A stretch of DNA of 64,000 nt from Candidatus Tayloriibacteriota bacterium (GCA_031384385.1 JANNAN010000017.1:3020-67019); one strand, 5' to 3'; positions 1,886 to 43,538 are shown, counted from the stretch's first letter. Notes: a model not told the origin generated them from the sequence alone. Numbers and translations: made by a program.

Positions 1886-1887
1886 CA

Positions 1888-27460: not shown

Positions 27461-27532
27461 TGCCAGATCGTCTAACGGTAGGACGTCGCTCTCTGAAAGC
27501 GAAAATTTTGGTTCGATTCCAAGTCTGGCAGC
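27461..27532 (+). tRNA. tRNA-Gln (CTG)
   Basis: Acceptor TGCCAGA/TCTGGCA (U1-A72 as in bacterial tRNA-Gln). Anticodon stem TCGCT/AGCGA with loop CTCTGAA. T-arm TTTGG-TTCGATT-CCAAG. Confidence 0.8.
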
Positions 27533-29085
27533 AATTTCGCAAAAATCGCAGAATCGCCGAAAAAAGGCGAAGGGGTCGCAGAATGAGGAGGGCGGGGCGG
27601 AATTCCCCCCTGAAACACCCCTTCCGCCCCGCCCGCTTCCTTGTTGGCGTTTTTGGGAATTTTCGTTACAAATGCAAAAGGAAAATGCGGAGAAAAAATG
27701 AGGGTGCGGTTGTGGACGAGTGGGTTCGAACCGACTTTTTCAAAGAATGATCGAATTTTCGTAGCATCAGTACTCTCTGCCAAAATAGTGGCTTGTTTAC
27801 AGTCGTTTAGGAAATTTATGATAGGTTCGAACCGATTGCTAGAAACTTTGCCGAAAGCAGTGATTTTGTCTTTCAAAACCTGCTTTTCGGTCACCAATTT
27901 ATTCTTTGTTTCTTGATACTCTTCAAGAGTTAGGGCATTGCCAAGATATGCTGACATAAGTTTTTCTAATTTAGCGTCAACGGCTAGTGCCTCACTATTT
28001 ACTTTCTGAATCTGATTTTTTGAGGAATCATCGTCTTTAGATCGATCTTTCTCTACTTCCGCAATAAGCCAGTCGGCCACTTCACTAGACAGTGATACTT
28101 TTCTGATCTCATCCTGGATGAGTGTCGTCATAGCTTCCTCACGGACATACTTTTGAGAGCATGGGCCTTTGCGTTTGGTGCAGCGTAAATAGTTATGACC
28201 TTTTTGTGTCTCAATAGTAAGGCAACAGCCACATTCAGCGCATTTGAACAGTCCGCGATAAACATATGGTTTCAAATCACCGTCATGTTGTGGTTTACTT
28301 TTTTTGGTCATGACTTCCTGGCATATATCAAAAATTTTCTTGGTGATAATCGGCTCATGCTTGCCTTCATAAAATTCACCATGAAAAAGTATGAGTCCAT
28401 GATAAAGATTATTTTTGAGTAGATACTGATAATTTGAAATGGAAAGCTCCTTGCCTTTGTGTCCAGTCAAGCCAAGTTCACCTATACTTTTGCGGAGGGC
28501 TGATAAAGTATAATTTCTGGTAGCATATGTTTCAAAAGCTTTCTTGATGAAAGGAGCTTTTTCAGGATCGACTACAATGAGTTTTGTTTTCTTGTCGTTA
28601 AGATATCCAATCGGCGCTTTCTGTGGCCAGATGCCGTTCTTCAATTTTTGTTTGTAACTCCTCTTAACATTTTCGGAAAGATTGTCTACATAATATTTCG
28701 ATTGAGAAAAAGAGATGGAAAGCATAAATTTTCCCTGCGGAGTTGCGTCAAACCAGAAAGTTGGAAATTTTAAATCAGTAATTACACCAGTATCAACCAT
28801 GTAAATGATTTTTCCACCATCAACCGAGTTACGAGCGAGCCTGTCGGGATGCCAAGCCAAAATCCCTGAAGCCTCGCCAGCTTCTATGCGCTCCAACATC
28901 TCCGCGAAAACAGGTCTACCGGGAGTTTTGGCAGTTTGCTTCTCGATAAATACATCTACAACCTCCAGTTGCTCTTTTTTGGCGAGCTCGCGTAGCTCGG
29001 AGAGCTGGTCGGCAAGACTTCGGACTTGTCGATCCTCGGTATCGGTAGATTTGCGGGTGTAAATAAAATATTTCTTGTCGCTCAT
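27472..29085 (-). CDS. Large serine recombinase (resolvase/invertase N-domain, recombinase domain, zinc ribbon). The ORF reads through the GC-rich trailer into tRNA-Gln.
   Basis: N-terminus YTRKSTDTEDRQVRSLADQ (catalytic Ser region). Cys cluster CAECGCC...CTKRKGPC. Size 537 aa. The last ~20 codons overlap tRNA-Gln on the opposite strand. Confidence 0.8.
   Translation of the reverse strand: MSDKKYFIYTRKSTDTEDRQVRSLADQLSELRELAKKEQLEVVDVFIEKQTAKTPGRPVFAEMLERIEAGEASGILAWHPDRLARNSVDGGKIIYMVDTGVITDLKFPTFWFDATPQGKFMLSISFSQSKYYVDNLSENVKRSYKQKLKNGIWPQKAPIGYLNDKKTKLIVVDPEKAPFIKKAFETYATRNYTLSALRKSIGELGLTGHKGKELSISNYQYLLKNNLYHGLILFHGEFYEGKHEPIITKKIFDICQEVMTKKSKPQHDGDLKPYVYRGLFKCAECGCCLTIETQKGHNYLRCTKRKGPCSQKYVREEAMTTLIQDEIRKVSLSSEVADWLIAEVEKDRSKDDDSSKNQIQKVNSEALAVDAKLEKLMSAYLGNALTLEEYQETKNKLVTEKQVLKDKITAFGKVSSNRFEPIINFLNDCKQATILAESTDATKIRSFFEKVGSNPLVHNRTLIFSPHFPFAFVTKIPKNANKEAGGAEGVFQGGIPPRPPHSATPSPFFGDSAIFAKLLPDLESNQNFRFQRATSYR
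27534..27650. repeat. GC-rich tRNA trailer, family C, with a perfect 12-bp inverted repeat (GGCGGGGCGGAA ... TTCCGCCCCGCC at 27590-27632)
   Basis: Shares gaatcgccgaaaaaaggcgaaggggtcgcagaatgaggagggc with trailer B (about 80% identity). TCGCAGAAT occurs twice. Hairpin with a 19-nt loop. Confidence 0.55.
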
Positions 29086-29597: not shown

Positions 29598-32500
29598 ATG
29601 TTTGAAGGACCTCATATACCTAATGACGAATTGGAGAAAGATAAAGTTGAATCATCTGCATCAGATGCATTAGAGGCTCCTCTAGAAGATTGGAAAAATA
29701 GAGCATATTTTCGTATAAATCTCGGTGTTCATCGAGAAAGGATTGATCGAATAGTGGAACCTCTCAAAGAGACTCATCCGGAGTGGTTCAGATCTTTTAA
29801 AAATAAAACTGGGATGGGTGAGTATTTCTCCCCCGAGCTTGTTTCGATAGTTAGAGAAGAACTTGAAAAATATAAAAAGGCACCGGAAGGCTGGGAAGTC
29901 ATTAGTACTCTAGAGGAGTTAACTGGTAAATCAGGTGGTTTTATAAGTAAGACTATTGAACCATATAGAGAAACTCATCCCGAGTGGTTTAAAGATTATC
30001 TAAGTAAGAGGTCTAAGATTCTTGAACATTACGCACCTGAACTTATAACAATATTAAAAAAAGAATTTCAAAGTTATGAATATGCTCCTGAAGGATGGAA
30101 AACAAGAAATTCTGTGGCAAAGTCACTGAATGCTACAGATTTTATAGTTCAAAAAATTGTTAATCAGTTTGAACAAATTCATCCAGAGTTGGTAAAAGAT
30201 TACATGACAAAATCAGGTGTACTCACGCATTTTTCACCAGAATTAATCCTGATTATTGAAGAAGAACTGCTAAAAGAAGAAAAAGCACCAGAAGGGTGGG
30301 AAGTGATAAGTATGTTAGCTGAATTAACTGACAGAAGTCCTTTATTAATCAGAAGAACCATTGAACCATATAGAGAAACTCATCCCGAGTGGTTTAAGAA
30401 TTATAAGACTAGATCTGGTTTATTTGAACATTTTTCTCCTGAGTTAGTTGCGGTTATTAAAAATGAATTTTTAAAAGAAGAAAAACCACCAGAAGGGTGG
30501 ATGAATAGAAATGAATTGCATGATTCTTTGGGAATCAGTTATAAGAAACTTAATCGAATGGTAGCAACTCAGAAAGAAATTCATCCTGAGTGGTTTAAGT
30601 TCTTTAAGGGCAAGGCATTAGTTACGGAGTATGTATCCCCAGATGCTATTTTATTTTTTAAGGATATCGTAGTAAAAGAAGAGGAACCTCAAAAAGGTTG
30701 GATGAGTCCAGGGGAGTTAGGAGATTATTTGAAAGTTGCTTTTAAAACTATCAAAAAGGTAGCTGTAGAGCATAAAAAAAGTAATCCAGAGTGGTACAAA
30801 CTTTATAAATCAGATAATGCGAATATGACGGAGTACTATTCTCCCGAGTTGGTTATGATCCTGGAGGATAGATTTTTAAAGCCTCCACCACCTCTGGATT
30901 GGAAGACTATAAAATCATTTGCTGTTTCTAGAAATAGTGCCGTTAAGACAATTGAGAAACTTGTAGAATCGTATAGGGAGACAAATCCAGAATGGTTCAA
31001 GAATTATCGAACAAATAATGGTGTACACGAGCATATTTCTCCCGAACTGATTTCAGTAATAGAAAATTATTTTTCTAAGCAAAGCCCCCTTAAAGGATGG
31101 GAGGTTTTACAGTCATTGATTGTTTCCACGGGAAGATCGAATAAATTCATTGAGAAATTAATATTACCTTATAGAGAAACACACCCTGAATGGTTTAAGG
31201 AATTCAGAAGTGAAGATGGCAATTTGCGAAAATATTATTCTCCAGAATTAATTTCAATAATCAAGAATGAACTTTCAAATACTGAGTTTGTTCCAGAAGG
31301 ATGGGTGACTAGGAATTTCTTCTCCAAATCTAAGGGAGTAGATGTTGATATGATCGAGGACATAATAGCGCCGTATAAAGAAAAAAATCCAGAATGGTTT
31401 AGAAAGTTTGTATCAAAAAATGGTGGACAGAAGGTGGAGTATCTTTCACCGGAGCTAGTTTCCATTTTACAAAAAGAATTGGTAGATAATATAGCTCCAG
31501 AAGGTTGGAAGGTCTTGAGAGCCCTAAGATTTTCTATTGGTATTTCAGGATCTCCAATTAAGAAAATAGCCGAACCATATAGAGATTCTAATCCTGAATG
31601 GTTTAAAACTTTCAGAAGCGAAGATGGTAATTTACGCGAATATTTTTCTCCAGAATTAGTCTCGATTATAGAAACTGAACTATTAAAAGAAGGTGAGGCG
31701 CCAGAAGGATGGTTGAGAAATACTACTATAGCCAATTCACTTGAAGTAACAAAAGAAAAAACTAAGAAACTTGCAGATCAAAGTAGGGAAGCACATCCAG
31801 AATGGTTTAAAGATTTTAGGGGGAAAGAAGGTATATTCGAGTACTATTCACCCGAATTAATTTTGATTATTAAGAATTCTATTTTTATAGAAGAAAATGA
31901 GGCGCCTGGTGGCTGGGAGACCAATAAAGGTTTACAAAATAAAACGAATTTTTCTTACTACCTTCTCGAAAAAATTGAAGAACCTTACAGACTTACTCAT
32001 CCAGAATGGTTCAAAAACTTCAGAAGCAAGACAGGTGTGTATGAGCACCTTTCACCAGAACTGGTCTCAATTATTAAAGAAGAGGCTGAAAGACGACAAA
32101 GCTATGAGAGTGAAATTTTGAATAGAGAAAATTTCGATAAAAACCTTGTCGGATTTCTTAAAGGTGTAGACTCCTCAAAAGAAGGTATCGAATTCAAAGA
32201 CCTTATCAGTGTTTTCGGCTCGTCATCTGTTTTAGATATATTGTATGCAACGCACCCAGAATTCAAAGCAGTTCCTGTTGAACGTGTAAAATCTGTTATT
32301 GCTGAATATCTTGGAAATTACTTATTGTCGCCAGGTGCTTTTTCATTAGATTCGGTTAAAAATAATTTGTCATATCTTAAAGAAGAAAATATAAAGAATG
32401 GACTGGTTGAAGTGGTGAAAGATCATTGTCTGACGTATTTTTTAGAATATAAAAAGGCTAACCATGATAAAGATGATCAACAAATATTTACCGAATATTT

Positions 32501-35066
32501 TGCTCAGTTGGAAGATCAAACAAGTAGTTTTAATAATGCTGATCTTGATTCTGTGATCAAAGAGATAACTGAATACTATCAATCTATATTCAATCTAGAA
32601 AAGGGTGAACATCTCATTGAATCGTTAAACTCCGGAAGAAGCTTCCCGGATATTTATCAGAGTATCAATATAAAGGAAATTTCTGATAAGAAAAGATTGT
32701 TGATTGCCGATGAAATGGGTGTAGGTAAGAGTGCTTCAGCAATAATTGCAAAGGAATCTCTCGGCTCAAAATTGGCGCTAGTGGTTGTACCAAGTAATGT
32801 AGTAAATACATGGGAAAAATATCTGTCTGACACAGTCGGAGAAGATGCTAAAAAGATTGGATATTTCAAGAGTGGCGAAGCGCCTCGTGTTTTGGTTGTG
32901 AATGATATAGAAGAACTGAATAATATTGATCAAAATTTATACGATTATATTCTCATTTCTCATGAGAAACTTACTGGAAAATATACTGGAGCACTTGATG
33001 TCTTGGACTACGACATGCTCATTGTCGATGAAGTTCATAAGTTTAAGAATCTCAGTAGTGCAAAACGTCCAGAACAGCTCATTAGATTAGCTGAAAAGAT
33101 ACAAGGTGATGATAAATATCTTGCACTTCTATCGGGTACGCCAGTGCCAAATAAGATTGAGGATGTGGCATTACTCTTGAGACTCCTCCATCCAGATCGT
33201 TTCGAGGACCAAGATAATAAGCAAATTGTATCAAGTGTGCTCAATGGCAACCTTTCTGATATTCGAGCTTTGCTTGTGCCATATATGCAGAGAAAAGATC
33301 TGCGAGATCACATTGAGATGCCAAAACTTGATGAGGAAGTCATACCAGTTACACTTACTGGATCAGAGAAGGATGTATACGAAGTTTTGCTTGAAGAAGA
33401 TGAACTTACTCCAACTGAAAAAATGATTACCTTGCGTCGTTTCCTTATGAACCATGAGACACTGGATATTACACCAAATATACAAAGTAGTAAGGTTGAG
33501 ACCTTGAAAGGAAAGCTCACTGAAACTTTTGAATCAAAAGATAAGGTTGTTTTGTTTGTGAATGATTATGTGAAAGGTGTGATTGAAGGCGATAATTCAA
33601 TATTGTCTAATCTTGAATTACCAGAAGATGTTGAGATTAAGGTTGTCTACGGTGAAGTGTCTCAAGCCGAGAGAGTCTCTATTCAAGAAGAATTTAATAC
33701 TGAAAACGGTAAGAAAATATTATTGGTTGTTAGTGGTCAGACTGCTGGCGTCGGAGTTGATTATACTGGTGGAGAACACATATATTTCTATAATGAACCA
33801 TGGACAAAGGCGGACAGCGATCAACAAAAAGCTCGAGTATATAGACCTGGACTTAAACACGATATCCAATCAGAGACTCTGATTACAAAAGATACAATTG
33901 AGGAAGGTATACATCGATATGTTGAGTTGAAACACCAAGCAGTCAATAAGCTTCTGAATGGTATTCCAATTACAGAATTTGAAAAAGAACTATTGGAGAA
34001 GAGTGAACAATCAGAGGGCAATCTTGAAGTGAATCCAGAACTAGCTAACTATTATTTCTCATCTTTTGATAAGATGAATAGAATTTTTGCAGCGGTTAAA
34101 GAAATGGGTGAAGAAAATTTTTGGGATTTCATTGAGAAGCATGGCGCAGAATATGCTGATTGTTACTTTGAACTTGGTAATAGAAGCTATCAAGCCAATG
34201 CAAGTCGAGTCTGTGCCACATTGATTGATTCAATGATCAAAGCAGAAAAGTCTGATCCAAAAGATCTCAAAATTATCGATATTGCATCTGGTCCCGAGAT
34301 GCTTCGCCGTCACAGTAAAGAAGATGTTCAATCTGCTATTGTCAGTGCGGATATAAACATCAATCATTTCATCAATCGAGGCACGAAGGATGCGGTAGTC
34401 GCTGGCTTTACTGAATTACCATTCCCAGATAATAATTTTGATTATGCTAATTTTTCGCTCGCATTTCATTATAGTAAATTCTTACCAAGTAAAAATGAGT
34501 ATGAACGCGCAGAAGTATTAAAGGAAATTAATCGCGTTCTCAAAGTTGATGGCACAGCTGTTATTAATATGATTTATAGTCTTGATTTCAAGGACGTTGA
34601 TAAGTTTAAAAAGCTTGTTGGTTCTTTTGGTTTTGATGTTGTAGAAGGTTATTCCGGTGAAGTGGAATCTTCGGATAATTATAGATCAAGAGTTATTACA
34701 CTTAGAAAAAATAGTGATATAGAGCAATCAGCAGAAGAAGTGCTGAAAGATATGACCAGAGAAGAAATGGATGGTTTGAAGTTTGTTAGAACGACAGAAG
34801 GCCTCAAGGATTCAAGAAAGATTGTTTCTGATTTCAAACTCAATGGTAAAAGTTTTCATATTGATTTCAATGATTCAGATAAAATAGTCGTAAGAGAGGA
34901 AAAAGGTATTTTGGAGGACGGTAAAAGACTAAAAGATAAATATGGTTCAATCAAGGATATATCAAAGGAGGAGGTTGTGAATAATAATTTTGTCAGATTG
35001 TTGGTAGGGGAAAAGCATATTCTTTTCAAGAAGCTTTCAAAAGGAGGGGTGGTTTTGGTGAGATAG
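29598..35066 (+). CDS. Giant multidomain protein (1822 aa). It has an N-terminal array of 12 tandem ~68-aa repeats, an SNF2-family helicase/translocase, and a C-terminal class I SAM-dependent methyltransferase (Methyltransf_11-like).
   Basis: Repeats have the form W..L...IEPYRETHPEWFK.Y....G..EHYSPELISII..E...APEG. SNF2 motifs DEMGVGKS (I), LIVDEVHKFKN (II, DExH), LLSGTPVPNKIEDVALLLRLLHPDRF (III) and QQKARVYRPG (VI). MTase motifs IIDIASGPEML and LPFPDNNFDYANFSLAFHY. Confidence 0.8.
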   Translation: MFEGPHIPNDELEKDKVESSASDALEAPLEDWKNRAYFRINLGVHRERIDRIVEPLKETHPEWFRSFKNKTGMGEYFSPELVSIVREELEKYKKAPEGWEVISTLEELTGKSGGFISKTIEPYRETHPEWFKDYLSKRSKILEHYAPELITILKKEFQSYEYAPEGWKTRNSVAKSLNATDFIVQKIVNQFEQIHPELVKDYMTKSGVLTHFSPELILIIEEELLKEEKAPEGWEVISMLAELTDRSPLLIRRTIEPYRETHPEWFKNYKTRSGLFEHFSPELVAVIKNEFLKEEKPPEGWMNRNELHDSLGISYKKLNRMVATQKEIHPEWFKFFKGKALVTEYVSPDAILFFKDIVVKEEEPQKGWMSPGELGDYLKVAFKTIKKVAVEHKKSNPEWYKLYKSDNANMTEYYSPELVMILEDRFLKPPPPLDWKTIKSFAVSRNSAVKTIEKLVESYRETNPEWFKNYRTNNGVHEHISPELISVIENYFSKQSPLKGWEVLQSLIVSTGRSNKFIEKLILPYRETHPEWFKEFRSEDGNLRKYYSPELISIIKNELSNTEFVPEGWVTRNFFSKSKGVDVDMIEDIIAPYKEKNPEWFRKFVSKNGGQKVEYLSPELVSILQKELVDNIAPEGWKVLRALRFSIGISGSPIKKIAEPYRDSNPEWFKTFRSEDGNLREYFSPELVSIIETELLKEGEAPEGWLRNTTIANSLEVTKEKTKKLADQSREAHPEWFKDFRGKEGIFEYYSPELILIIKNSIFIEENEAPGGWETNKGLQNKTNFSYYLLEKIEEPYRLTHPEWFKNFRSKTGVYEHLSPELVSIIKEEAERRQSYESEILNRENFDKNLVGFLKGVDSSKEGIEFKDLISVFGSSSVLDILYATHPEFKAVPVERVKSVIAEYLGNYLLSPGAFSLDSVKNNLSYLKEENIKNGLVEVVKDHCLTYFLEYKKANHDKDDQQIFTEYFAQLEDQTSSFNNADLDSVIKEITEYYQSIFNLEKGEHLIESLNSGRSFPDIYQSINIKEISDKKRLLIADEMGVGKSASAIIAKESLGSKLALVVVPSNVVNTWEKYLSDTVGEDAKKIGYFKSGEAPRVLVVNDIEELNNIDQNLYDYILISHEKLTGKYTGALDVLDYDMLIVDEVHKFKNLSSAKRPEQLIRLAEKIQGDDKYLALLSGTPVPNKIEDVALLLRLLHPDRFEDQDNKQIVSSVLNGNLSDIRALLVPYMQRKDLRDHIEMPKLDEEVIPVTLTGSEKDVYEVLLEEDELTPTEKMITLRRFLMNHETLDITPNIQSSKVETLKGKLTETFESKDKVVLFVNDYVKGVIEGDNSILSNLELPEDVEIKVVYGEVSQAERVSIQEEFNTENGKKILLVVSGQTAGVGVDYTGGEHIYFYNEPWTKADSDQQKARVYRPGLKHDIQSETLITKDTIEEGIHRYVELKHQAVNKLLNGIPITEFEKELLEKSEQSEGNLEVNPELANYYFSSFDKMNRIFAAVKEMGEENFWDFIEKHGAEYADCYFELGNRSYQANASRVCATLIDSMIKAEKSDPKDLKIIDIASGPEMLRRHSKEDVQSAIVSADININHFINRGTKDAVVAGFTELPFPDNNFDYANFSLAFHYSKFLPSKNEYERAEVLKEINRVLKVDGTAVINMIYSLDFKDVDKFKKLVGSFGFDVVEGYSGEVESSDNYRSRVITLRKNSDIEQSAEEVLKDMTREEMDGLKFVRTTEGLKDSRKIVSDFKLNGKSFHIDFNDSDKIVVREEKGILEDGKRLKDKYGSIKDISKEEVVNNNFVRLLVGEKHILFKKLSKGGVVLVR
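29688..32136 (+). repeat. Twelve tandem ~204-bp coding repeats inside the giant gene. They are divergent at the nucleotide level.
   Basis: Periodic recurrence of HPEWF(K/R), YSPEL and APEGW every ~68 aa. Confidence 0.8.
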
Positions 35067-35108
35067 TAAAATCTTGCTAAAAATGATGATAAGTGAGATT
35101 ATCAGGCT

Positions 35109-35819
35109 ATGAAAAAGTTTGTTAAATTATTACAAAATCATGTTATCCTCGGTGCACTTGTTGCAACTATTTTGTTATTAGTTTTGTATTTATCTTGTAC
35201 AAATTTTAGGATTTACCTTTCAAATCATCAAATTGATCCAAATTTCATCATTGGATTTTTTACTGTGATCGCACTCCTCTTGAGTCTTATTCAGACATCA
35301 AAAGACAAGAGATACGCTTATAATCTACAACTAGTTAAATCTATAGAAGATAAAGGGCTTCTGGTTATTGCAAAGCTGATAAGTATAAAAGGTAGAAGCT
35401 TGGTTTATGTTGGCACTATAAAACAATTAAAATCCGTCTTTGGAACAAATCGGATATATCGGGATACAAATGAAGTTCTTTCTAAAACAGAAATCGAAAA
35501 AGGCATGGAACTTGTTGCGACTTATTTAGACACTTTTTTCCCTGCAATTAAAGAAAAATGGAATGATCTAACCGACAGATTAAGTGAACTTGGTACTATA
35601 AGCACGAATATCATTATTAATTATAATGAAAACTATAATCTGATTGGTACAAAAGGTTTTACAAATATTGCGTTAGATAATATAGATGCAAGTATCAAGA
35701 GAGCGGATGTATTAAATCAAGAAATTGATCAGATTACTCTTGAAATGAGAGATTCGATCGTTGGAAAAATAAATGAGTCGACGGGTGAATTTAAAAATAC
35801 TTTTGACTTTAGTTTCTAA
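35109..35819 (+). CDS. Hypothetical membrane protein (two N-terminal TM helices with a cytoplasmic helical domain)
   Basis: Hydrophobic N-terminus. No recognisable domain. Confidence 0.4.
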   Translation: MKKFVKLLQNHVILGALVATILLLVLYLSCTNFRIYLSNHQIDPNFIIGFFTVIALLLSLIQTSKDKRYAYNLQLVKSIEDKGLLVIAKLISIKGRSLVYVGTIKQLKSVFGTNRIYRDTNEVLSKTEIEKGMELVATYLDTFFPAIKEKWNDLTDRLSELGTISTNIIINYNENYNLIGTKGFTNIALDNIDASIKRADVLNQEIDQITLEMRDSIVGKINESTGEFKNTFDFSF

Positions 35820-35846
35820 GTAATAATTTTTGACTATAATCAAATT

Positions 35847-36323
35847 ATGAAATCATTTGGTGGAGGAAAAATTACACCATTACAGCTTTTACGGGAGGGA
35901 AAGGTATGGTTAGAAATATGGGAGAATACATCAAAAAAAACAACAAGTCTCCTACCTGCAACTTACTGTCTTTTTACAGCGTTAGAATTATATCTGAAGG
36001 CGTATCTTGTCCTTGAAAATAGTGAATATGCAGACGTTAAAAAATTAAAGAAACTGGGACATAACCGGGCTGAGAAAGCAGACACGGTCATATTTTTAGA
36101 CTTCTCCAGACGAGTTGTATATTGGAGGGTCTTAAAAAGGTACCTGGGAGATTTTAAAAACATCATTGATAACTTTTCAAATACATTGGGAATATTTAAG
36201 TATGTTTGGAAATTTCCACGAATGGAAATACTTTCTACTCTTGAAAAGTACAAGGAAGGTAAACGAATACTCATTTTACATAATCAAACAGAAGTTAGAA
36301 GTCTTCTAAAGCTTTCATCTTAG
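35847..36323 (+). CDS. Hypothetical protein, possibly HEPN-like
   Basis: ALELYLKAYLVL...KKLGHNRAEK helix pattern reminiscent of HEPN. Weak. GC-richer composition than the flanking genes. Confidence 0.3.
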   Translation: MKSFGGGKITPLQLLREGKVWLEIWENTSKKTTSLLPATYCLFTALELYLKAYLVLENSEYADVKKLKKLGHNRAEKADTVIFLDFSRRVVYWRVLKRYLGDFKNIIDNFSNTLGIFKYVWKFPRMEILSTLEKYKEGKRILILHNQTEVRSLLKLSS

Positions 36324-36332
36324 AATCTATAA

Positions 36333-36539
36333 ATGAACATCATGAAAAACCTTTCCATCAACAAAATAATCCTCTCAGACAGAGACGCCTACAAAACCAT
36401 CTACTGCATGAGCCCAGAGTATAAACGAGGAGCAGAAAAAGCCCTGGATGTTGAACACGCATATTACTCGAATGCTTTGGAAGGCTGTAAGATTGACCGA
36501 ATAGAATTTGAAAAGCTGGCAGAAAGCATAGCGGCATAG
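36333..36539 (+). CDS. Small hypothetical protein (68 aa)
   Basis: Intact ORF with atypical C-rich third positions suggesting foreign origin. Confidence 0.3.
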   Translation: MNIMKNLSINKIILSDRDAYKTIYCMSPEYKRGAEKALDVEHAYYSNALEGCKIDRIEFEKLAESIAA

Positions 36540-36622
36540 AAAATTTGTTGACTCAAACTATTCTGGTATACTATCAACACTACGGCTTCGGCCCGACTCC
36601 GCCTCAGCGGGGGTAAAAACAA

Positions 36623-37177
36623 ATGGAAAATAAAGAACTTAAAAATATAGCTTTCATAGACGGACAAAACCTGTATATGAATACTGCCAAAAAGGAAAAG
36701 AATTCTTGGCTCATCGACCTTGCCCGTTTTCACGTTTATTTACAGAAGAAATATAATGTCGATAAGGCATACTACCACCTCGGTTACGTGCAGCCTGAGA
36801 ACAATGACCTTTATGAAGAAATTCAAAAGACTGGATTCATCCTACTTTTCCGTTTACACAATCCTGCCATGGTCGGTAAAAAGAAAGGCAATGTAGATTC
36901 GGACATCATCTTCAATGTTATGAAGAGGCTCTACAAAAAGGAGGAATTTGATAAAGTCGTGCTTGTTTCAGGTGATGGAGACTACAAGCTACTGGTTGAT
37001 TTTCTTATTGAAGAAAATAGATTTGAAAAAATACTCTTTCCAGATAGGCAGTACAGATCATCTCTCTACAAAGAACTCACTAACCTATACTTTGCATATT
37101 TGGATGATGAGGATATAAAAAGCAAAATTATCAAAATTAAAGAAGAGGATTCGGATAAAAAGAAAAGGGTGCCTTAG
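36623..37177 (+). CDS. NYN-domain (LabA-like) predicted RNase
   Basis: AFIDGQNL, VDSDI and LVSGDGDY acidic motifs typical of the NYN/PIN-like fold. Confidence 0.6.
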   Translation: MENKELKNIAFIDGQNLYMNTAKKEKNSWLIDLARFHVYLQKKYNVDKAYYHLGYVQPENNDLYEEIQKTGFILLFRLHNPAMVGKKKGNVDSDIIFNVMKRLYKKEEFDKVVLVSGDGDYKLLVDFLIEENRFEKILFPDRQYRSSLYKELTNLYFAYLDDEDIKSKIIKIKEEDSDKKKRVP

Positions 37178-37520
37178 GTAGTTAGCCGTTTGGACCCCTT
37201 TTCGTCTGAATACCTATATCTTAGCATGGAGGTTCTCGAAAAGTCAATCGCCAAAATAACCTTATCACGTCTTCACTATCCTGAACCAATTGAGATCAGA
37301 TATGCTCATAAGTGAGGTTCTAACATCGTCCAAGCCCGGTAGCCAAGTTGAATGTTTCAAAACTAGCGTCTGCGGATGCTGTTTTATTCGAAAGCAAAAC
37401 AATTTATAGTTAAAATAATTCTAAGTATATTTTTTAAACTAGTCGGGCACTCCGTACTTTGTCTTCTTGTATGTAAAGTCGTCTTTACATACTGTATTCT
37501 TATATGTATAATCAAAGCTT

Positions 37521-37733
37521 ATGCAAGAGAAAATAAAAAATGATGTAAGTAAATATAGAATAGAGGTAGGTGTGACACAAGAGGATCTTGCATCCAAGGT
37601 CAGTGTGAGTAGGCAGACTATCATTGCCTTGGAGAAGGGAAACTATACACCTTCAATTTTACTAGCTCTTAAAATCGCTGGTTTCTTCAAGATGCCTGTC
37701 GAGAAAATATTTAAAATTTCTTATGAAAAATAA
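37521..37733 (+). CDS. XRE-family helix-turn-helix transcriptional regulator
   Basis: VGVTQEDLASKVSVSRQTIIALEKG is an HTH_3 motif. Confidence 0.7.
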   Translation: MQEKIKNDVSKYRIEVGVTQEDLASKVSVSRQTIIALEKGNYTPSILLALKIAGFFKMPVEKIFKISYEK

Positions 37734-38085
37734 TCTAAAAGAATCTATTGTTACTGTTGGCCTTGTCATCACAGCGGTATTACTTTTGAATCCATTTCAT
37801 TTTTGGATGCCGGATATGATGGTGATGAGCATGCTCGCTATAATTCTCGTTCTTTTCGCTATATTTGCAAGTTTTATTCTTAGAGAAAAAACTATTGATG
37901 AAAGAGATACTCAGCATCGAACACTTGCTGGTCGGAATGCTTTTCTGGCAGGATCTGCAGTACTCATCCTTGGTATCCTTGTTCAGGGATATTCACATAA
38001 AGTTGATGAATGGTTGATAGTCGCTCTTATATTCATGATAGTAGCTAAAATAGGTACTCGTATTTGGAGTGACAGAAATCTTTAA
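37723..38085 (+). CDS. Small membrane protein co-encoded with the XRE regulator
   Basis: Three TM helices. Overlaps the XRE gene stop. Confidence 0.4.
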   Translation: MKNNLKESIVTVGLVITAVLLLNPFHFWMPDMMVMSMLAIILVLFAIFASFILREKTIDERDTQHRTLAGRNAFLAGSAVLILGILVQGYSHKVDEWLIVALIFMIVAKIGTRIWSDRNL

Positions 38086-38169
38086 AATCTGATGTAAAGT
38101 ATACTTTACATTTATTTTGTTTCATATATAATAGTATGTATATAAGTAATTAATAAATAACAATATTTT

Positions 38170-38736
38170 ATGAATAAAAAAATAGGAATTATTATTGGGG
38201 TTATAGCATTAGTAATAATAGCTGGAGGAATTTATGCATCTCAGAATTCAAAAGAAAATGCAATGATGGCTAAAGAAAAAATGGAACAGGCGGGTGTGGT
38301 AGATCCAAATATGTCTGCAGAAAAGGCTATGATGGAGAAAAAGGTTATGGAAGAAAAAAGTGTAATGATGAAAGCTGACACTACAAAAACCGACACAATA
38401 ATAAAGGCAGATAGTATGATGAAGGTTGGTTCATACGAAGCTTATACACCAGAAAAAGTAGCTCTTGCTTCCGCTACTCATCATGTAGTTCTATTTTTCA
38501 GAGCAAGTTGGTGTCCGACATGTATTTCTCTTGATAAAGATATAAAATCAAATCTTAGTAAGATTCCTTCTGACTTATCAATTCTAGATATTAACTATGA
38601 CAATTCATCCGAACTAAAGAAAAAATATGGTGTAACATATCAACATACATTTGTACAAGTTGATAAAGATGGAAACTTAATCAAAAAGTGGAGTGGTAGT
38701 CCAACTCTCACTGTACTCGTAGGAGAAGTAAAATAA
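38170..38736 (+). CDS. Thioredoxin-fold protein (membrane-anchored, WCPTC)
   Basis: N-terminal TM helix. FFRASWCPTC active-site motif. Confidence 0.6.
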   Translation: MNKKIGIIIGVIALVIIAGGIYASQNSKENAMMAKEKMEQAGVVDPNMSAEKAMMEKKVMEEKSVMMKADTTKTDTIIKADSMMKVGSYEAYTPEKVALASATHHVVLFFRASWCPTCISLDKDIKSNLSKIPSDLSILDINYDNSSELKKKYGVTYQHTFVQVDKDGNLIKKWSGSPTLTVLVGEVK

Positions 38737-38737
38737 T

Positions 38738-40534
38738 ATGTTGCTCCTCCTGATCTCATTTATCGCTGGAGTATTGACGGTGCTTGCACCATGTATTCTT
38801 CCACTTCTTCCTGTAATTATCGGAGGATCACTTTCTGATGGTGGGACAGGAGGATTTAATAAAAAGAAAGCTTTCACTATTATTGTATCTCTCGGTGTAT
38901 CGGTTATTGTTTTTACGCTTCTTTTGAAAGCAAGTACACTTTTTATTGATATACCAGAATATGTTTGGAAGTGGATTTCAGGTGGCATCGTCTTATTTTT
39001 AGGTCTTGTTACTCTTTTTCCATCTCTTTGGGAAAGTTCACTACTAGCAAAACTTAGTTCAAAATCAAATGTTCTCATGGGTAAGGGTTATCAGAAAAAG
39101 AATTTTTGGGGCGATGTAATTATTGGGGCATCTCTCGGTCCTGTATTCTCAACATGTAGTCCTACTTATTTTATTGTCCTAGCAACAGTATTACCTGTAA
39201 ATCCTGCTATTGGCATAGTCTATCTCCTGTCTTATACCATAGGACTATGTCTCTCATTGCTCATTGTATCTATTGTTGGTCAAAAAATAATGAATAAGCT
39301 TGGCGTCGCAGCAGACCCGAAAGGCTGGTTCAAGAAAACCTTAGGAATTATATTTATTATTGTTGGTATAGCGGTCATCGGTGGATTTGATAAAAAGACC
39401 CAGCTATTTTTATTAAATTCAGGATTTTTTGATGTAACAAAAATTGAGCAAAAGCTTTTAGAAAAAAATAATGCTCCGGTTTTTATCCCATCAAGTATTT
39501 CATCAACTACCTTACAGATTGATTCACAAATGCAAAATGAATCGACAACTGAAAAAACAATTATGAAAAAAAGTGAAATGGTATATCTAAGTCAGGAGCA
39601 AAAACAGGCGAAGTTTAAAAAAGTTCCAGAACTCAGTTCTATTGATGGATATATAAACACTGATGGAAAAAGGATAACCCTTGACTCACTAAAAGGTAAG
39701 GTTGTGCTGTTAGATATATGGACATACAGCTGTATCAATTGTCAGCGAACATTGCCTTATATAAATGATTGGTATGGAAAATACAAAGAGCAGGGACTTG
39801 AGATCGTTGGTCTTCATACGCCAGAGTTTGCATTTGAAAGAGTAATATCAAATGTTGAAAAGGCAGTAGAAAAATTTGGTATCAAGTATCCCGTTGTCTT
39901 GGATAATGATTATTCAACATGGCAAGCGTTAGGTAATCAATTTTGGCCAAGAAAATATCTTATTGATATTGATGGATATATTGTTTATGACCATATTGGT
40001 GAAGGAAATTATGAAGAAACAGAAAAAGCTATTCAAGAAGCTCTAAAGGAGCGTTCTTCTCGAATGGGTATGCAGGATAAAATATCTGAAAGTATTTCAA
40101 AACCTAACAATGTTGTGTCTGTAGATTCACACCAAGTCAAAAGTCCAGAAACCTACTTCGGCTCTGCACGAAATAGTCTACTCACGAATGGGAAAAGTGG
40201 GATAACTGGAGAGCAGACACTTTCTGTACCATTGGGCATCTCTCCAAACAGATTGTATCTTGATGGTACATGGAATATGACATCTGAATATGCTGAAAAT
40301 AAAAGTGTTGGAAGTATAGTTTTTAACTATGAAGCAAAAAATGTCTATATTACTGGAGGCTCGAAGGAGGGTATTGAGATTGAAATCTATAAAGATGATG
40401 TATTTTTAAAGAAAATAATGATCAAAGATGAAACACTATATACTCTTATTCAAGATGCAGAGTATGGAAAACACGATCTTCGAATTGTAATACCAAAAGC
40501 TGGACTACAAGCATTCACTTTTACATTCGGTTAG
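38738..40534 (+). CDS. Fusion protein with an N-terminal CcdA/DsbD-type thiol-disulfide transporter domain and a redoxin/TlpA domain (SCINC), plus a C-terminal beta-rich domain
   Basis: N-terminal multi-TM region with LAPCILPLLP (a CcdA hallmark). DIWTYSCINCQRTLP redoxin motif. Confidence 0.6.
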   Translation: MLLLLISFIAGVLTVLAPCILPLLPVIIGGSLSDGGTGGFNKKKAFTIIVSLGVSVIVFTLLLKASTLFIDIPEYVWKWISGGIVLFLGLVTLFPSLWESSLLAKLSSKSNVLMGKGYQKKNFWGDVIIGASLGPVFSTCSPTYFIVLATVLPVNPAIGIVYLLSYTIGLCLSLLIVSIVGQKIMNKLGVAADPKGWFKKTLGIIFIIVGIAVIGGFDKKTQLFLLNSGFFDVTKIEQKLLEKNNAPVFIPSSISSTTLQIDSQMQNESTTEKTIMKKSEMVYLSQEQKQAKFKKVPELSSIDGYINTDGKRITLDSLKGKVVLLDIWTYSCINCQRTLPYINDWYGKYKEQGLEIVGLHTPEFAFERVISNVEKAVEKFGIKYPVVLDNDYSTWQALGNQFWPRKYLIDIDGYIVYDHIGEGNYEETEKAIQEALKERSSRMGMQDKISESISKPNNVVSVDSHQVKSPETYFGSARNSLLTNGKSGITGEQTLSVPLGISPNRLYLDGTWNMTSEYAENKSVGSIVFNYEAKNVYITGGSKEGIEIEIYKDDVFLKKIMIKDETLYTLIQDAEYGKHDLRIVIPKAGLQAFTFTFG

Positions 40535-40626
40535 AAAATATTGAAATACAATCTAATGATTGAACTAAGGCTATGTTATAGTATTAGTATTGTTTTTAAA
40601 TTTAATTTAAATAGATAAACTATAAT

Positions 40627-40995
40627 ATGAAAAAATACAAAATAATTTTTTGGGTAACTACGGGTATTATATTTTTAATGGAAGGTGTACTACCTGCTTT
40701 TACTTCGCAAAGTAAAATGGCAATTGAGGGAATTACTAGTTTAGGTTATCCAGTATATTTTAGTGGTATGCTGACCGTATTTAAAGTATTTGGATCATTA
40801 TCATTAATAATTCCGCAAATATCATCTCGCATAAAAGAGTGGGCATATGCAGGTTTTGGAATTGATTTTATTTCAGCATTTGTGAGTATTTGGATTGTTG
40901 CTGGTTTTAGAATAATGTTAATTCTCCCTGTTATTTTTATGATCTTGCTTGTGCTTTCATACATCTCTTATCATAAAATAAAAATGATAAATTAA
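40627..40995 (+). CDS. DoxX-like small membrane protein
   Basis: Four TM helices. Position in the redox cluster. Confidence 0.35.
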
Positions 40996-40997
40996 AT

Positions 40998-41354
40998 ATG
41001 AATTCTCTCACTCCTGAAGAAAAAAGAATAATAATCAATAAAGGTACAGAAGCTCCATTTTCTGGTGAATATGTTAATAATAAAGAAACTGGAATTTATG
41101 TTTGTAGACAATGCGAAGCGCCACTTTATAATTCAAAAGATAAATTTGAATCTGATTGCGGTTGGCCAAGTTTCGATGATGAGATAGAAGGTTCTGTTAA
41201 AAAAAGTATTGATGCTGATGCTCAGAGAACAGAAATAACTTGTGTTAAATGTGGAGGACATTTGGGCCACTTATTTTTTGGAGAAAATTTAACTCCTAAA
41301 AATACTAGATATTGTGTTAATTCTATATCAATGAAATTTATACCAGGGAAATAA
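40998..41354 (+). CDS. msrB: Peptide-methionine (R)-S-oxide reductase MsrB
   Basis: CxxC...CxxC zinc sites ([20 protein letters not shown]) and the catalytic RYCVNS. Confidence 0.85.
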
Positions 41355-41355
41355 T

Positions 41356-41844
41356 ATGATAAAGAAAATAATATTAGCAGGTGGTTGTTTTTGGGGATTA
41401 CAAAATTTAATCAGAAAACAAAAAGGAATTATAAATACTCGAGTTGGTTATACTGGTGGTAAAAATGAAAATCCGACCTATGAAAATCATCCGGGGCATG
41501 CTGAAGCGATAGAAATTGAATATGATTTAGAAAAAACTTCTTATAAAAATTTATTAGATTTTTTCTTTCAAATTCATAATCCCACTACCATCAATCAACA
41601 AGGCAATGATATTGGTACTTCTTATAGATCTGCAATTTTTTATTCTAATGAAGAAGAAAGAAAAGAGGCAAATGATTTTATTAAAATTGTAAATAAATCT
41701 GATCGCTGGAAAAATCCTGTAGTTACGACGATTGAGCCATTTATTAAATTTTATCTTGCAGAAGATTATCATCAAAATTATCTACAAAAAAATCCAAATG
41801 GATATACATGTCACGCTATATGGTTTGATAGTTATCTAAAGTAG
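41356..41844 (+). CDS. msrA: Peptide-methionine (S)-S-oxide reductase MsrA
   Basis: GGCFWG active site and [10 protein letters not shown]. Confidence 0.85.
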
Positions 41845-41860
41845 TGTTATTCTCTAATTC

Positions 41861-43321: not shown

Positions 43322-43365
43322 AACGACCTTTGCGCATTAAATTATTTTCTGTATAATGATTATCT

Positions 43366-43500: not shown

Positions 43501-43538
43501 AAACTAGCCACTTGAGATAATCCCTCAGGTGGCGGTTT

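What the first reader, a model, noticed from the sequence alone, without database searches (positions are those of the whole stretch)
35109..37177. Block of small foreign-composition genes (membrane protein, HEPN-like protein, 68-aa protein, NYN RNase) downstream of the giant gene
The genes at 35847-37177 have visibly higher GC and C-ending codons (for example 36333-36539) than native genes. One is a NYN/LabA-type predicted RNase with an intact acidic triad. Another has a HEPN-like helix pattern.

NYN and HEPN RNases are recurrent effector domains in toxin-antitoxin and abortive-infection systems. Their placement on the putative integrative element, just after the SNF2-MTase giant and before an XRE regulator with a tiny membrane protein, suggests a cargo defence or addiction module.

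A sigma70-like promoter (TTGACT ... TATACT, 36548-36575) and a GC hairpin precede the NYN gene.
Basis: partly seen in the sequence, partly recalled or inferred. Interest (0 to 1): 0.55.

Follow-up and report, generated by a model that had tools for sequence, protein, structure and literature searches.

The report
NYN RNase with antisense RNA partner
The four genes are not one defence module: one is a scar made by fusing two broken genes. The NYN RNase is a conserved Patescibacteria gene that always carries a predicted, undescribed ~57-nt antisense RNA gene over its 3' end.

Summary
The ORFs exist, but they are not a four-gene cargo module.

- **ORF1 (35109-35819):** an intact two-TM helical protein. 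Its relatives sit in unrelated contexts.
- **ORF2 (35847-36323):** an in-frame deletion fusion. The first 73 codons come from a ~233-aa family that is only weakly HEPN-like. The last 85 codons come from a ~150-aa P-loop kinase whose Walker A motif is lost.
- **ORF3:** a real 65-68-aa protein (dN/dS about 0.2), but it is absent from 79 of 80 NYN loci.
- **NYN (36623-37177):** intact and under strong purifying selection.

Related genomes place NYN beside the same tRNA-Gln without the ~9-kb serine-recombinase/SNF2 block. NYN is therefore resident, not cargo.

The main result is a ~110-nt element over the NYN stop codon. It was detected in all 80 genome loci. In a motif-only metagenome scan, 61 of 65 testable hits had NYN directly upstream.

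On the minus strand the element reads as a sigma-70 promoter, a covarying hairpin and a U-tail. This predicts a ~57-nt antisense RNA (37211 to 37155). It is absent from Rfam and from the searched literature.

The most likely role is antisense control of NYN, similar to a type I toxin-antitoxin system. No transcript or toxicity has been shown.

The parts
27461..27532 (+). tRNA-Gln(CTG). Its 3' end is the left boundary of the ~9-kb insertion.
   Evidence: ARAGORN and Rfam. In L018 the same tRNA is followed directly by the NYN unit, and in L021 by ORF3-NYN after 0.8 kb.
27472..29085 (-). Large serine recombinase. Its last 61 nt overlap tRNA-Gln on the opposite strand.
   Evidence: Pfam Resolvase, Recombinase and Zn_ribbon_recom domains. 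PHROG integrase, E 2.5e-77. GC3 0.41.
29598..35066 (+). 1822-aa SNF2 helicase plus methyltransferase, with N-terminal repeats of about 67 aa. It is part of the inserted block.
   Evidence: Pfam; repeats. It is absent between tRNA-Gln and NYN in L018 and L021.
35109..35819 (+). ORF1: an intact 236-aa protein with two N-terminal TM helices and a helical bundle. It belongs to a small family seen only in Patescibacteria-type contigs. Function unknown.
   Evidence: 21 homologous clusters, all 221-251 aa except one 138-aa fragment, with no Pfam domain. AlphaFold pLDDT 84, all helical. Foldseek against PDB gives only generic helical bundles. Contexts are unrelated: after uvrB, or next to Pirin genes. 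SLATT hits are only E about 0.05.
35847..36065 (+). ORF2, N-terminal part: the first 73 codons of a ~233-aa family that is questionably HEPN-like and has a C-terminal CxxC...CxxC motif. Truncated here.
   Evidence: 74% identity to residues 1-74 of P0008 and P0005. Full-length copies lie about 6 kb from a serine recombinase gene in L001 and L002.
36066..36323 (+). ORF2, C-terminal part: the last 85 codons of a ~150-aa P-loop kinase (AAA_18 / 'DNA topology modulation protein'-like). Walker A is missing. The fusion junction lies at the microhomology ATAAC, 36061-36065.
   Evidence: 83-92% identity to the C-terminal halves of P0002 to P0004. NCBIfam NF005994, E 1.1e-10, for residues 74-155 only. 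Codon-level junction.
36342..36539 (+). ORF3: a conserved 65-aa protein (68 aa if translated from the ATG at 36333). Function unknown. It follows the intact kinase gene in L005 and L006 and precedes NYN in L008 to L011 and L021.
   Evidence: 8 clusters at 90% identity and 16 representatives among 1.8 billion proteins. dN/dS 0.14-0.27 for most pairs, 0.08 for the near-identical L008/L009 pair. No Pfam or PDB relative. Only 1 of 80 genome NYN loci has it.
36564..36572 (+). Extended -10 promoter box TGGTATACT of NYN.
   Evidence: Invariant or nearly so in the window, L008 to L012, L018, L021 and L023, even where the upstream DNA differs.
36579..36622 (+). NYN 5' leader. It has a GGCUUCGGCC hairpin (36584-36593) and a second hairpin (36597-36612) whose 3' arm holds the G-run Shine-Dalgarno sequence.
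   Evidence: Fold. The two hairpin types are conserved or swapped among close relatives. The transcription start is inferred from the position of the -10 box.
36623..37177 (+). NYN (LabA-type, COG1432 group) RNase, 184 aa, intact.
   Evidence: Pfam. Conserved Asp residues. Closest solved structure is 2QIP, E 2.5e-7. At least 138 species representatives. dN/dS about 0.06 against L012 and L013.
37155..37211 (-). Predicted ~57-nt cis-antisense small RNA.
- 8-nt 5' tail.
- Hairpin with arms 37192-37203 and 37162-37173.
- U-tail at 37157-37161.
- It overlaps the NYN stop codon (37175-37177) and the last 7 codons.
   Evidence: Covariance model hit at 37148-37216 (-), 77.9 bits, E 1.6e-15; the plus orientation scores 17 bits. 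Covariation exceeds 0 of 500 shuffles in two sets. G-U asymmetry of 59 against 19 favours the minus strand. Fold -14.3 kcal/mol.
37218..37247 (-). Sigma-70-type promoter of the antisense RNA: TTGACT (37247-37242), 18-nt spacer, TG-n-TAAGAT (-10 at 37223-37218).
   Evidence: Promoter scan. The same promoter sits at a fixed distance from the hairpin in 70 of 74 and 74 of 78 independent sequences, against 17% of shuffles reaching the same score.

Best explanation
The 35109-37177 block is a junction between two unrelated things, not one module.

**Left side.** This is the distal end of a block of about 9 kb (27533 to about 36060) holding the serine recombinase, the SNF2-methylase giant and ORF1. 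It lies between tRNA-Gln and a resident locus.

**The fusion.** A later deletion between two ATAAC microhomologies fused a gene of the inserted block (the ~233-aa family that is questionably HEPN-like) in frame to a resident P-loop kinase gene. This produced ORF2. ORF2 lacks Walker A and most of the other fold, so it is most likely a non-functional scar. The same deletion probably removed the right attachment site of the element.

**Right side.** This is resident.
- ORF3 is a small conserved protein that normally follows the kinase gene.
- A self-contained NYN unit runs from about 36560 to 37250.

**The NYN unit contains:**
1. An extended -10 promoter and a leader whose hairpin buries the ribosome-binding G-run.
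2. An intact LabA-type NYN RNase gene.
3. A convergent minus-strand gene for a ~57-nt hairpin RNA that overlaps the NYN stop codon and 3' end.

**Proposed mechanism (inferred, not shown).** The small RNA is made constitutively. It pairs, starting through the conserved loops, with the complementary hairpin at the 3' end of NYN mRNA. The duplex is then cut (RNase III type) or the mRNA is otherwise destabilised. This keeps the RNase low. Loss of the short RNA would release NYN expression.

This is the architecture of type I toxin-antitoxin pairs with 3' overlap, but the protein is a 184-aa nuclease instead of a membrane peptide. The loop sequences are conserved beyond what antisense pairing needs. 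The hairpin may therefore also, or instead, be bound by the NYN protein.
For: **Shown: ORF2 is a chimera.**
- Its two halves have different full-length homologue families.
- The junction is resolved at codon level.

**Shown: insertion and synteny.**
- L018 has tRNA-Gln joined directly to window position 36554.
- L021 has FtsX, CTP synthase, tRNA-Gln, ORF3 and NYN in order.
- L013 has NYN next to the FAD-oxidoreductase homologue of 43539-44789.

**Shown: there is no quartet elsewhere**.

**Shown: linkage of the 3' element and NYN.**
- nhmmer detected the element in all 80 NYN loci from GTDB species.
- A metagenome scan with the DNA motif alone returned at least 120 stretches. Of 65 testable, 61 have NYN directly upstream.

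**Shown: the conservation is not due to coding.**
- Mean pairwise nucleotide identity is 0.77. The NYN CDS scores 0.63 overall and 0.42 at third positions.
- The NYN stop codon sits at variable positions relative to the element.

**Shown: minus-strand promoter.**
- A score of at least 9 of 12 is reached in 70 of 74 and 74 of 78 sequences, with a fixed offset of 12-14 nt before ACGAAAAGG.
- Only 17% of shuffles reach that score.
- The nearly invariant columns are TTG, TA and the start AT.

**Shown: hairpin.**
- 94-96% of cells are paired.
- 9 and 6 pairs show compensatory changes, and 0 of 500 shuffles reach the observed values.
- G-U against C-A asymmetry is 59 against 19. The minus strand pairs better in 35 sequences and the plus strand in 13.
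- The hairpin is followed by a U-run.

**Shown: specificity.** The covariance model gives a single hit in the window. It gives none in control loci without NYN.

**Shown: not previously described in the sources searched.** Not in Rfam. No matching literature was found.

**Precedents for the 3'-overlap architecture.** bsrG/SR4 (PMC3834814), yonT/SR6 (PMC5848175) and RNase III dependence (PMC3531473).
Against: - No transcript data exist. The promoter, start site and terminator are all inferred from sequence.
- NYN toxicity is unknown.
- NYN looks like a long-resident, strongly constrained gene. dN/dS is about 0.06. dS is saturated against the syntenic L021, L018 and L023 copies. Composition generally matches the host. 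This fits a housekeeping RNase at least as well as a toxin.
- Type I toxins are normally small hydrophobic peptides.
- The loop sequences are conserved far more than cis-antisense pairing requires.
- The hairpin also folds on the plus strand (-17.7 kcal/mol), so it may simply act as a bidirectional terminator.
- The right end of the inserted block is not mapped. No att repeat was found. Assigning ORF1 and the gene that gave the ORF2 N-part to the element rests on comparison with L021, L018, L001 and L002 only.
Confidence: 0.55

Rival explanations
1. NYN is a housekeeping RNA-processing or RNA-decay enzyme of Patescibacteria. The conserved 3' element is then a cis-regulatory 3'-UTR or bidirectional terminator, or an autoregulatory site bound or cut by NYN itself. 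The short antisense transcript would be incidental or only fine-tune expression. No toxin or addiction logic is involved.
For: - Strong purifying selection and long residence at the tRNA-Gln locus.
- Presence in at least 138 species across many Patescibacteria classes, including a cultured one.
- NYN GC3 usually tracks that of the host.
- Loop sequences are conserved beyond the needs of antisense pairing.
- The hairpin also folds on the plus strand.
- The literature implicates bacterial NYN genes in tRNA or rRNA processing on the basis of gene neighbourhood (PMC5499597).
Against: - Gene contexts are highly variable.
- Some genomes hold two copies: L013/L024, L014/L015, and two copies in L020.
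- Truncated, frameshifted or deleted NYN genes occur with the element retained: L011, L065, L075, L005 and L111.
- The minus-strand promoter is positionally conserved.
- The G-U asymmetry favours the minus-strand RNA.
Confidence: 0.3
2. ORF1, the HEPN-like gene, the 68-aa gene and NYN together form a defence or addiction cargo module of the integrative element.
For: - All four genes are co-oriented with short spacers and lie downstream of the recombinase/SNF2 element.
- ORF3 and NYN have atypical composition.
- There are weak PADLOC hits: HEC-09 at E 7e-4 and NYN at E 0.006.
Against: - The quartet is not found together anywhere else.
- ORF2 is a truncated fusion.
- NYN and ORF3 lie outside the insertion by comparison with L018 and L021.
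- NYN has its own promoter.
- No significant defence-system model matches.
Confidence: 0.04
3. ORF3 and NYN form a type II toxin-antitoxin pair, with the small protein as antitoxin and the PIN-like RNase as toxin.
For: - ORF3 lies directly upstream of NYN in the window, L008 to L011 and L021.
- ORF3 is under purifying selection.
- Its small size and position resemble VapB-VapC-type pairs.
Against: - 79 of 80 genome NYN loci lack ORF3.
- ORF3 persists with the kinase gene where NYN has been deleted (L005). It has been deleted where NYN persists (L012).
- NYN has a separate promoter between the two genes.
- ORF3 has no similarity to known antitoxins.
Confidence: 0.06
4. The conserved hairpin is a DNA-level recombination site, similar to an attC or transposon end, that mobilises the NYN gene as a cassette.
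For: - The element lies at the 3' end of the gene and is an imperfect palindrome.
- NYN contexts vary.
- Other genes are inserted precisely next to it in L008, L009, L012 and L005.
Against: - The element has no integron core sites.
- No integrase is linked to it.
- The adjacent promoter-like boxes sit at a fixed distance and are explained by transcription.
- The motif gives 0 hits in 2.9 million viral contigs.
- NYN is stably syntenic in the window's lineage.
Confidence: 0.04

Closest known systems
Type I toxin-antitoxin systems with convergent 3'-overlapping antisense RNAs (Bacillus subtilis bsrG/SR4, yonT/SR6, txpA/RatA)
   Same: - A protein gene and a small RNA gene are transcribed convergently.
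- The RNA has its own promoter and terminator and overlaps the 3' end of the mRNA.
- The mRNA 5' region sequesters the ribosome-binding site.
- The expected effect is duplex-triggered decay (PMC3834814, PMC5848175, PMC3531473).
   Different: - The protein here is a 184-aa cytosolic NYN nuclease, not a hydrophobic peptide of less than 60 aa.
- The RNA is only about 57 nt and is essentially one hairpin.
- Its sequence is conserved across classes of a whole phylum-level group.
- Neither toxicity nor the transcript has been shown.
Type III toxin-antitoxin systems (ToxIN, CptIN)
   Same: An endoribonuclease is paired with a small structured RNA. Strong conservation of the RNA sequence would fit protein binding.
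   Different: - There are no tandem RNA repeats.
- The RNA gene is convergent and downstream, not upstream on the same strand.
- The nuclease fold is different.
LabA-like NYN proteins, group NYN.COG1432 (structure 2QIP, VPA0982)
   Same: Same Pfam family, the same conserved acidic residues and a stand-alone single-domain architecture.
   Different: The group has no established biochemical function. No associated antisense RNA has been described in the sources searched.
VapBC and other PIN-domain type II toxin-antitoxin pairs
   Same: A PIN-like RNase sits next to a small upstream gene (ORF3) in the window.
   Different: The small gene is not co-conserved with NYN, being present in only 1 of 80 loci. 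The two genes are not in one operon.
HEPN-MNT and other HEPN RNase toxins
   Same: The full-length relatives of the ORF2 N-part have a helical N-terminal domain with an invariant His. They also show weak HEPN hints.
   Different: - There is no Rx4-6H motif.
- The hits are below threshold.
- No MNT partner is present.
- The window copy is cut after residue 73.
Large-serine-recombinase integrative elements at tRNA genes
   Same: A recombinase with Resolvase, Recombinase and Zn-ribbon domains lies directly next to a tRNA gene. It is followed by a DNA-modification/helicase gene that lies within the inserted block.
   Different: No att repeats or right end are identifiable. The right end was probably deleted when ORF2 was formed.

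Membership tests
NYN domain (PF01936, LabA-like COG1432 group) | Profile match above the curated cut-off | tested here: met
   53 bits against a cut-off of 24.2, E 6.8e-14, residues 11-139. PDB 2QIP matches at E 2.5e-7.
NYN domain (PF01936, LabA-like COG1432 group) | Conserved acidic metal-binding residues (four according to PMC5499597) | tested here: met
   D13, D92, D94, D118 and D120 are invariant in alignment A2.
NYN domain (PF01936, LabA-like COG1432 group) | Ribonuclease activity | not testable with these tools
   This needs an enzyme assay. The group has no characterised member.
HEPN domain RNase | Profile match above the curated cut-off | tested here: not met
   ORF2 has no hit. The full-length relative P0008 scores 15.7 bits against a cut-off of 22, E 0.017, and only 1 of 8 members hits.
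HEPN domain RNase | Rx4-6H catalytic motif | tested here: not met
   The family has an invariant KLK...H with variable spacing and no Arg.
HEPN domain RNase | HEPN helical-bundle fold | tested here: inconclusive
HEPN domain RNase | Complete domain present in the window copy | tested here: not met
   Only residues 1-73 of about 233 are kept. The rest of ORF2 is the kinase C-terminus.
Type II toxin-antitoxin pair (ORF3 + NYN) | Antitoxin gene co-conserved with, and in one operon with, the toxin gene | tested here: not met
   ORF3 lies upstream of NYN in 1 of 80 genome loci. A conserved NYN promoter lies between the two genes.
Type I toxin-antitoxin system | Antisense RNA gene overlapping the toxin gene | tested here: met
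   Met at sequence level only. The minus-strand promoter, hairpin and U-tail are conserved in more than 150 loci. The transcript has not been observed.
Type I toxin-antitoxin system | Toxin is a small hydrophobic peptide | tested here: not met
   NYN is a 184-aa soluble nuclease-fold protein.
Type I toxin-antitoxin system | Toxicity of the protein and its neutralisation by the RNA | not testable with these tools
   This needs expression experiments.
Type III toxin-antitoxin system | Tandem RNA repeats upstream of the toxin gene | tested here: not met
   No tandem repeats in 35000-37600.
Known anti-phage defence systems (PADLOC-DB) | Significant match to a system component model | tested here: not met
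   The best hits for the four proteins are E 7e-4 (HEC-09, partial) and E 0.005-0.05.
Cargo of the serine-recombinase element | The gene lies inside the segment that is absent from related genomes at the same site | tested here: not met
   Not met for NYN and ORF3, because L018 and L021 keep them next to tRNA-Gln without the element. For ORF1 and the ORF2 N-part the test is met, but the right boundary is not mapped.
Rfam families | The 3' element or leader matches a described RNA family | tested here: not met
   Only tRNAs were found at gathering thresholds in the window; 14 loci gave tRNAs plus one L10 leader away from the NYN 3' element. Nothing real was found at E up to 10 in 36480-37560.

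The most novel reading that the evidence does not exclude
The NYN gene plus its convergent ~57-nt hairpin RNA is a new, Patescibacteria-wide RNase/RNA-antitoxin module. It would be a hybrid of type I and type III logic. The conserved small RNA neutralises a LabA-type NYN nuclease by mRNA pairing, by protein binding, or by both. This would give the first function and the first regulatory partner for the large uncharacterised NYN.COG1432 group. It would also define a new structured-RNA family with several hundred members.
Probability: 0.3. Interest if true: 0.75.

Novelty: new variant of a known kind. Interest (0 to 1): 0.6.

Why it matters
**Annotation.** A 158-aa ORF that looks like a small 'HEPN' effector is in fact a fusion scar. 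Neighbourhood-based defence calls at the edge of an island can therefore be wrong.

**Biology.** LabA-type NYN proteins are abundant and have no known function. Patescibacteria have very few described regulatory RNAs.

A small RNA gene linked to NYN in more than 150 independent loci gives a concrete hypothesis. The RNA has its own promoter and a covarying hairpin. It is more conserved than the protein-coding sequence. The hypothesis can be tested in a cultured host, Minisyncoccus archaeiphilus, or in existing metatranscriptomes.

If the RNA controls or binds the nuclease, it defines a new RNA family and a new way of restraining a PIN-like RNase.

Tried and rejected
1. **ORF3 as a VbhA- or Fic-type antitoxin.** Suggested by the SxxxEG-like motif 'SNALEG'. 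There is no support from Pfam on all 8 members or from a PDB profile search.
2. **ORF1 as a SLATT 2TM effector.** Only E about 0.05 in PADLOC and NCBIfam. Foldseek gives generic helical bundles.
3. **att repeats of tRNA-Gln at the right end of the insertion.** None found.
4. **The 220-nt region after NYN as one structured plus-strand RNA.** z-score -0.11. Only the first ~60 nt carry the hairpin.
5. **ToxI-like repeats.** None.
6. **Integron or attC reading of the gene arrays in L008 to L011.** No core sites were seen; not pursued.
7. **Phage carriage.** The motif gives 0 hits in viral contigs. The four proteins have no PHROG hits.
8. **Enrichment of tRNA genes next to NYN units.** 5 of 60 loci have a tRNA within about 350 nt. 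I judged this too weak to use.
9. **Recent horizontal transfer of NYN, tested through dS.** dS is 0.87 against L013, compared with 1.54 for the neighbouring FAD oxidoreductase. This is not low enough to claim recent transfer.
Full report
**1. What is at the coordinates**

The window is AT-rich (about 32% GC) and looks like a Patescibacteria genome, judging from where the relatives come from. The four ORFs exist as described:
- ORF1, 35109-35819, 236 aa.
- ORF2, 35847-36323, 158 aa.
- ORF3, 36333/36342-36539, 68/65 aa.
- NYN, 36623-37177, 184 aa.

Upstream lie tRNA-Gln (27461-27532), a large serine recombinase on the minus strand (27472-29085) and an 1822-aa SNF2 plus methyltransferase protein. 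Downstream lie an XRE regulator with a DUF2178-type membrane protein, then thioredoxin, DsbD and Msr genes.

Only NYN has a Pfam domain, at E 6.8e-14. Its Asp residues D13, D92, D94, D118 and D120 are invariant among relatives.

**2. Composition**

I compared against 57 background genes (GC3 0.186 ± 0.050).
- ORF3 (GC3 0.51, C3 0.33) and NYN (GC3 0.41) are clear outliers. So is the recombinase (GC3 0.41).
- ORF1 is not an outlier.
- The ORF2 halves are only mildly shifted.

The 'foreign composition' therefore applies to 36333-37177, not to the whole block.

Across 67 other loci, NYN GC3 usually tracks the host. In the window's close clade, NYN and ORF3 keep GC3 of 0.34-0.50 whatever the host GC. 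The window copy is thus atypical for its very AT-rich genome.

**3. ORF2 is a fusion scar**

A database search splits ORF2 cleanly.
- Residues 1-73 match the N-termini of 230-236-aa proteins at 50-74% identity. These proteins carry a C-terminal CxxC...CxxC motif.
- Residues 74-158 match the C-termini of 149-159-aa P-loop kinases at 83-92% identity. These are AAA_18/AAA_17 proteins, and NCBIfam 'DNA topology modulation protein' hits residues 74-155 at E 1.1e-10.

At codon level the two parents meet at ...GGA CAT AAC | CGG GCT.... The shared ATAAC lies at 36061-36065.

The fusion lacks the kinase Walker A motif and about 160 residues of the other family. No other genome has this 158-aa protein: its cluster has one member.

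**4. Is the N-terminal family HEPN?**

The evidence is inconclusive and leans negative.
- Pfam HEPN is reached only at E 0.017, below the cut-off, for 1 of 8 members.
- There is no Rx4-6H motif.
- The AlphaFold model is good (pLDDT 86). Foldseek against PDB finds nothing at E below 1, and HEPN toxins appear only at probability 0.2.

Full-length copies in L001 and L002 lie about 6 kb from a serine recombinase gene. This fits a gene carried by such elements.

**5. ORF1 and ORF3**

ORF1 belongs to a family of 21 clusters, nearly all about 236-251 aa. Its model shows two N-terminal TM helices and a helical bundle, with no informative fold match. Its relatives sit after uvrB in Taylorbacteria or next to Pirin genes. 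None lies near NYN, the kinase or the HEPN-like family.

ORF3 is a genuine small protein.
- It forms 8 clusters at 90% identity and 16 representatives among 1.8 billion proteins, nearly all 48-112 aa.
- dN/dS is 0.14-0.27 for most pairs.
- It has no Pfam or PDB relative.
- It follows the intact kinase gene in L005 and L006.
- It precedes NYN in L008 to L011 and L021.
- It is missing from 79 of 80 genome NYN loci.
- It has been lost where NYN persists (L012) and kept where NYN is deleted (L005).

ORF3 is therefore not an obligate partner of NYN.

**6. NYN is resident, not cargo**

- L021 (a Taylorbacteria MAG) is syntenic with the window: FtsX (53% aa identity), CTP synthase (61%), tRNA-Gln, then a 115-aa ORF, ORF3 and NYN within 0.8 kb. 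It has no recombinase or SNF2 gene.
- L018 joins the 3' end of the same tRNA-Gln directly to window position 36554, the NYN promoter.
- L013 places the NYN unit next to the homologue of the FAD oxidoreductase at 43539-44789.

Relative to these genomes, 27533 to about 36060 is an insertion. The simplest history has three steps:
1. The element integrated beside tRNA-Gln.
2. A deletion then ran from inside a gene of the inserted block to inside the resident kinase gene.
3. This created ORF2 and probably removed the right attachment site. No att repeat is detectable.

NYN shows dN/dS of about 0.06 against L012 and L013. Its dS against L021, L018 and L023 is saturated.

**7. The NYN unit, 5' side**

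Close relatives share an invariant TTCTGGTATACT, an extended -10 box at window 36564-36572. The leader that follows has a GGCUUCGGCC hairpin and a second GC hairpin. The 3' arm of the second hairpin holds the G-run before the AUG.

It is not listed by the scan. In more distant relatives the -10 box lies 5-9 nt from the start codon, which suggests leaderless mRNAs.

**8. The NYN unit, 3' side: the main finding**

The DNA around the NYN stop codon is conserved at nucleotide level in every NYN locus examined. Mean pairwise identity is 0.77. The CDS scores 0.63 overall and 0.42 at third positions. The stop codon falls at variable positions relative to the element, so the conservation is not due to coding.

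Read on the minus strand, the element has three parts.

*Promoter.*
- The form is TTGAC(A/T), a spacer of 16-18 nt, then TATAAT. In the window this is TTGACT, 18 nt, TG-n-TAAGAT at 37247-37218.
- A score of at least 9 of 12 is reached in 70 of 74 genome sequences. It is reached in 74 of 78 independent metagenome sequences.
- The promoter always ends 12-14 nt before ACGAAAAGG.
- Only 17% of shuffles reach that score.

*Hairpin.*
- 94-96% of cells form standard pairs.
- Compensatory changes occur in 9 and 6 pairs. No shuffle out of 500 reaches the observed values, and slid controls are far lower.

*U-run.* A run of U residues follows the hairpin.

G-U pairs number 59 on the minus strand. On the plus strand there would be 19, so the structure is better on the minus strand.

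The predicted RNA in the window runs from 37211 to about 37155, about 57 nt. It overlaps the last 7 NYN codons and the stop.

A covariance model finds one hit in the window, at 77.9 bits and E 1.6e-15. The opposite orientation scores 17 bits. It finds no hits in control loci without NYN.

Of 65 testable instances, 61 have NYN directly upstream, and one exception is a truncated NYN.

The motif is absent from 2.9 million viral contigs. Rfam 15 has no matching family. Literature searches found nothing on NYN with Patescibacteria or with type I systems. The reference classification calls this NYN group 'function unknown' (PMC5499597).

**9. Mechanism**

*Shown:* the sequence features and their linkage to NYN.

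*Inferred:* the minus-strand RNA is made, pairs with the complementary hairpin at the 3' end of NYN mRNA, and lowers NYN expression. Precedents are bsrG/SR4 and yonT/SR6, where the antisense RNA overlaps the toxin mRNA 3' end and RNase III is involved (PMC3834814, PMC5848175, PMC3531473).

*For an accessory, toxin-like unit:*
- variable contexts;
- two copies in some genomes;
- broken or deleted NYN genes with the element retained.

*Against it:*
- very strong purifying selection, long residence and breadth of distribution;
- loop conservation that suggests protein recognition.

I therefore rate the existence of the antisense RNA gene at about 0.75. I rate antisense control of NYN at about 0.45 and a true toxin-antitoxin function at about 0.3.

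**10. Verdict**

- The interpretation as a four-gene cargo module with NYN and HEPN effectors is not supported.
- One of its elements survives in a different form: an RNase restrained by a linked neutraliser. The neutraliser is a predicted, previously undescribed small RNA.

Noticed in passing
window 37261-37345: A second conserved non-coding block of about 85 nt lies downstream of the NYN unit, with 57 invariant columns across 7 loci. In L008, L009, L012 and L005 an extra gene (171 aa, DUF5677 or DUF3800) is inserted precisely between the antisense promoter and this block. In L008 the insertion is flanked by a 12-nt duplication. The function and the relevant strand are unknown. A terminator-like hairpin follows at 37364-37381.
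   Followed up: partly
window 29770-32080: The N-terminal half of the 1822-aa SNF2/methyltransferase protein consists of at least 10 tandem repeats of about 67 aa, with a period of 198-204 nt. The repeats share the motifs HPEWF and SPEL.
   Followed up: no
window 27472-27532: The serine recombinase ORF runs 61 nt into tRNA-Gln on the opposite strand. Its last ~20 codons are therefore the antisense of the tRNA.
   Followed up: no
window 27650-27720 and 29415-29485; also 27582-27642: A 71-nt inverted repeat, 75% complementary, brackets most of the recombinase gene and the region upstream of the SNF2 gene. A GC-rich 21-nt palindrome lies inside the 3' part of the recombinase gene. This might mark an invertible segment or the ends of the element.
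   Followed up: no
window 37250-43540 compared with L013: In L013 the NYN unit abuts the homologue of the FAD oxidoreductase at 43539-44789. The XRE/DUF2178, thioredoxin/DsbD, Msr and ABC-F block of the window is therefore also variable between relatives.
   Followed up: partly
window 37484-37733 and 37723-38085: The XRE gene has a strong promoter match, TTTACA-17-TATAAT (11 of 12), at 37484-37512. It overlaps the start of the DUF2178-type membrane protein gene by 11 nt, which suggests a separate two-gene unit.
   Followed up: no
window 1799-1886: ARAGORN calls a tRNA-Ser with anticodon ACT. This is unusual for bacteria, where A34 is normally restricted to tRNA-Arg (the rule is from my own knowledge).
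   Followed up: no
L101 (metagenome contig ORMF011855349.1), excerpt positions 1009-1401 and 1501: One of the four orphan copies of the antisense-RNA element lies about 100 nt downstream of a gene. By eye that gene looks like a PemK/MazF-type toxin (…REVWWCALGTNVGSEQDGKR…). No profile search was run.
   Followed up: no
upstream regions of NYN in L031, L045, L052, L071, L072, L079, L083 and others: In many distant relatives an extended -10 box (TGnTATAAT) lies only 5-9 nt before the NYN start codon. This suggests leaderless NYN mRNAs, unlike the 44-nt structured leader in the window clade.
   Followed up: no
L008-L011: The contigs that carry ORF3-NYN are arrays of small, unrelated, co-oriented genes with short spacers. 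They include Ser hydrolase, DUF1697, SOUL, dCMP deaminase, CYTH and NUDIX genes.
   Followed up: no
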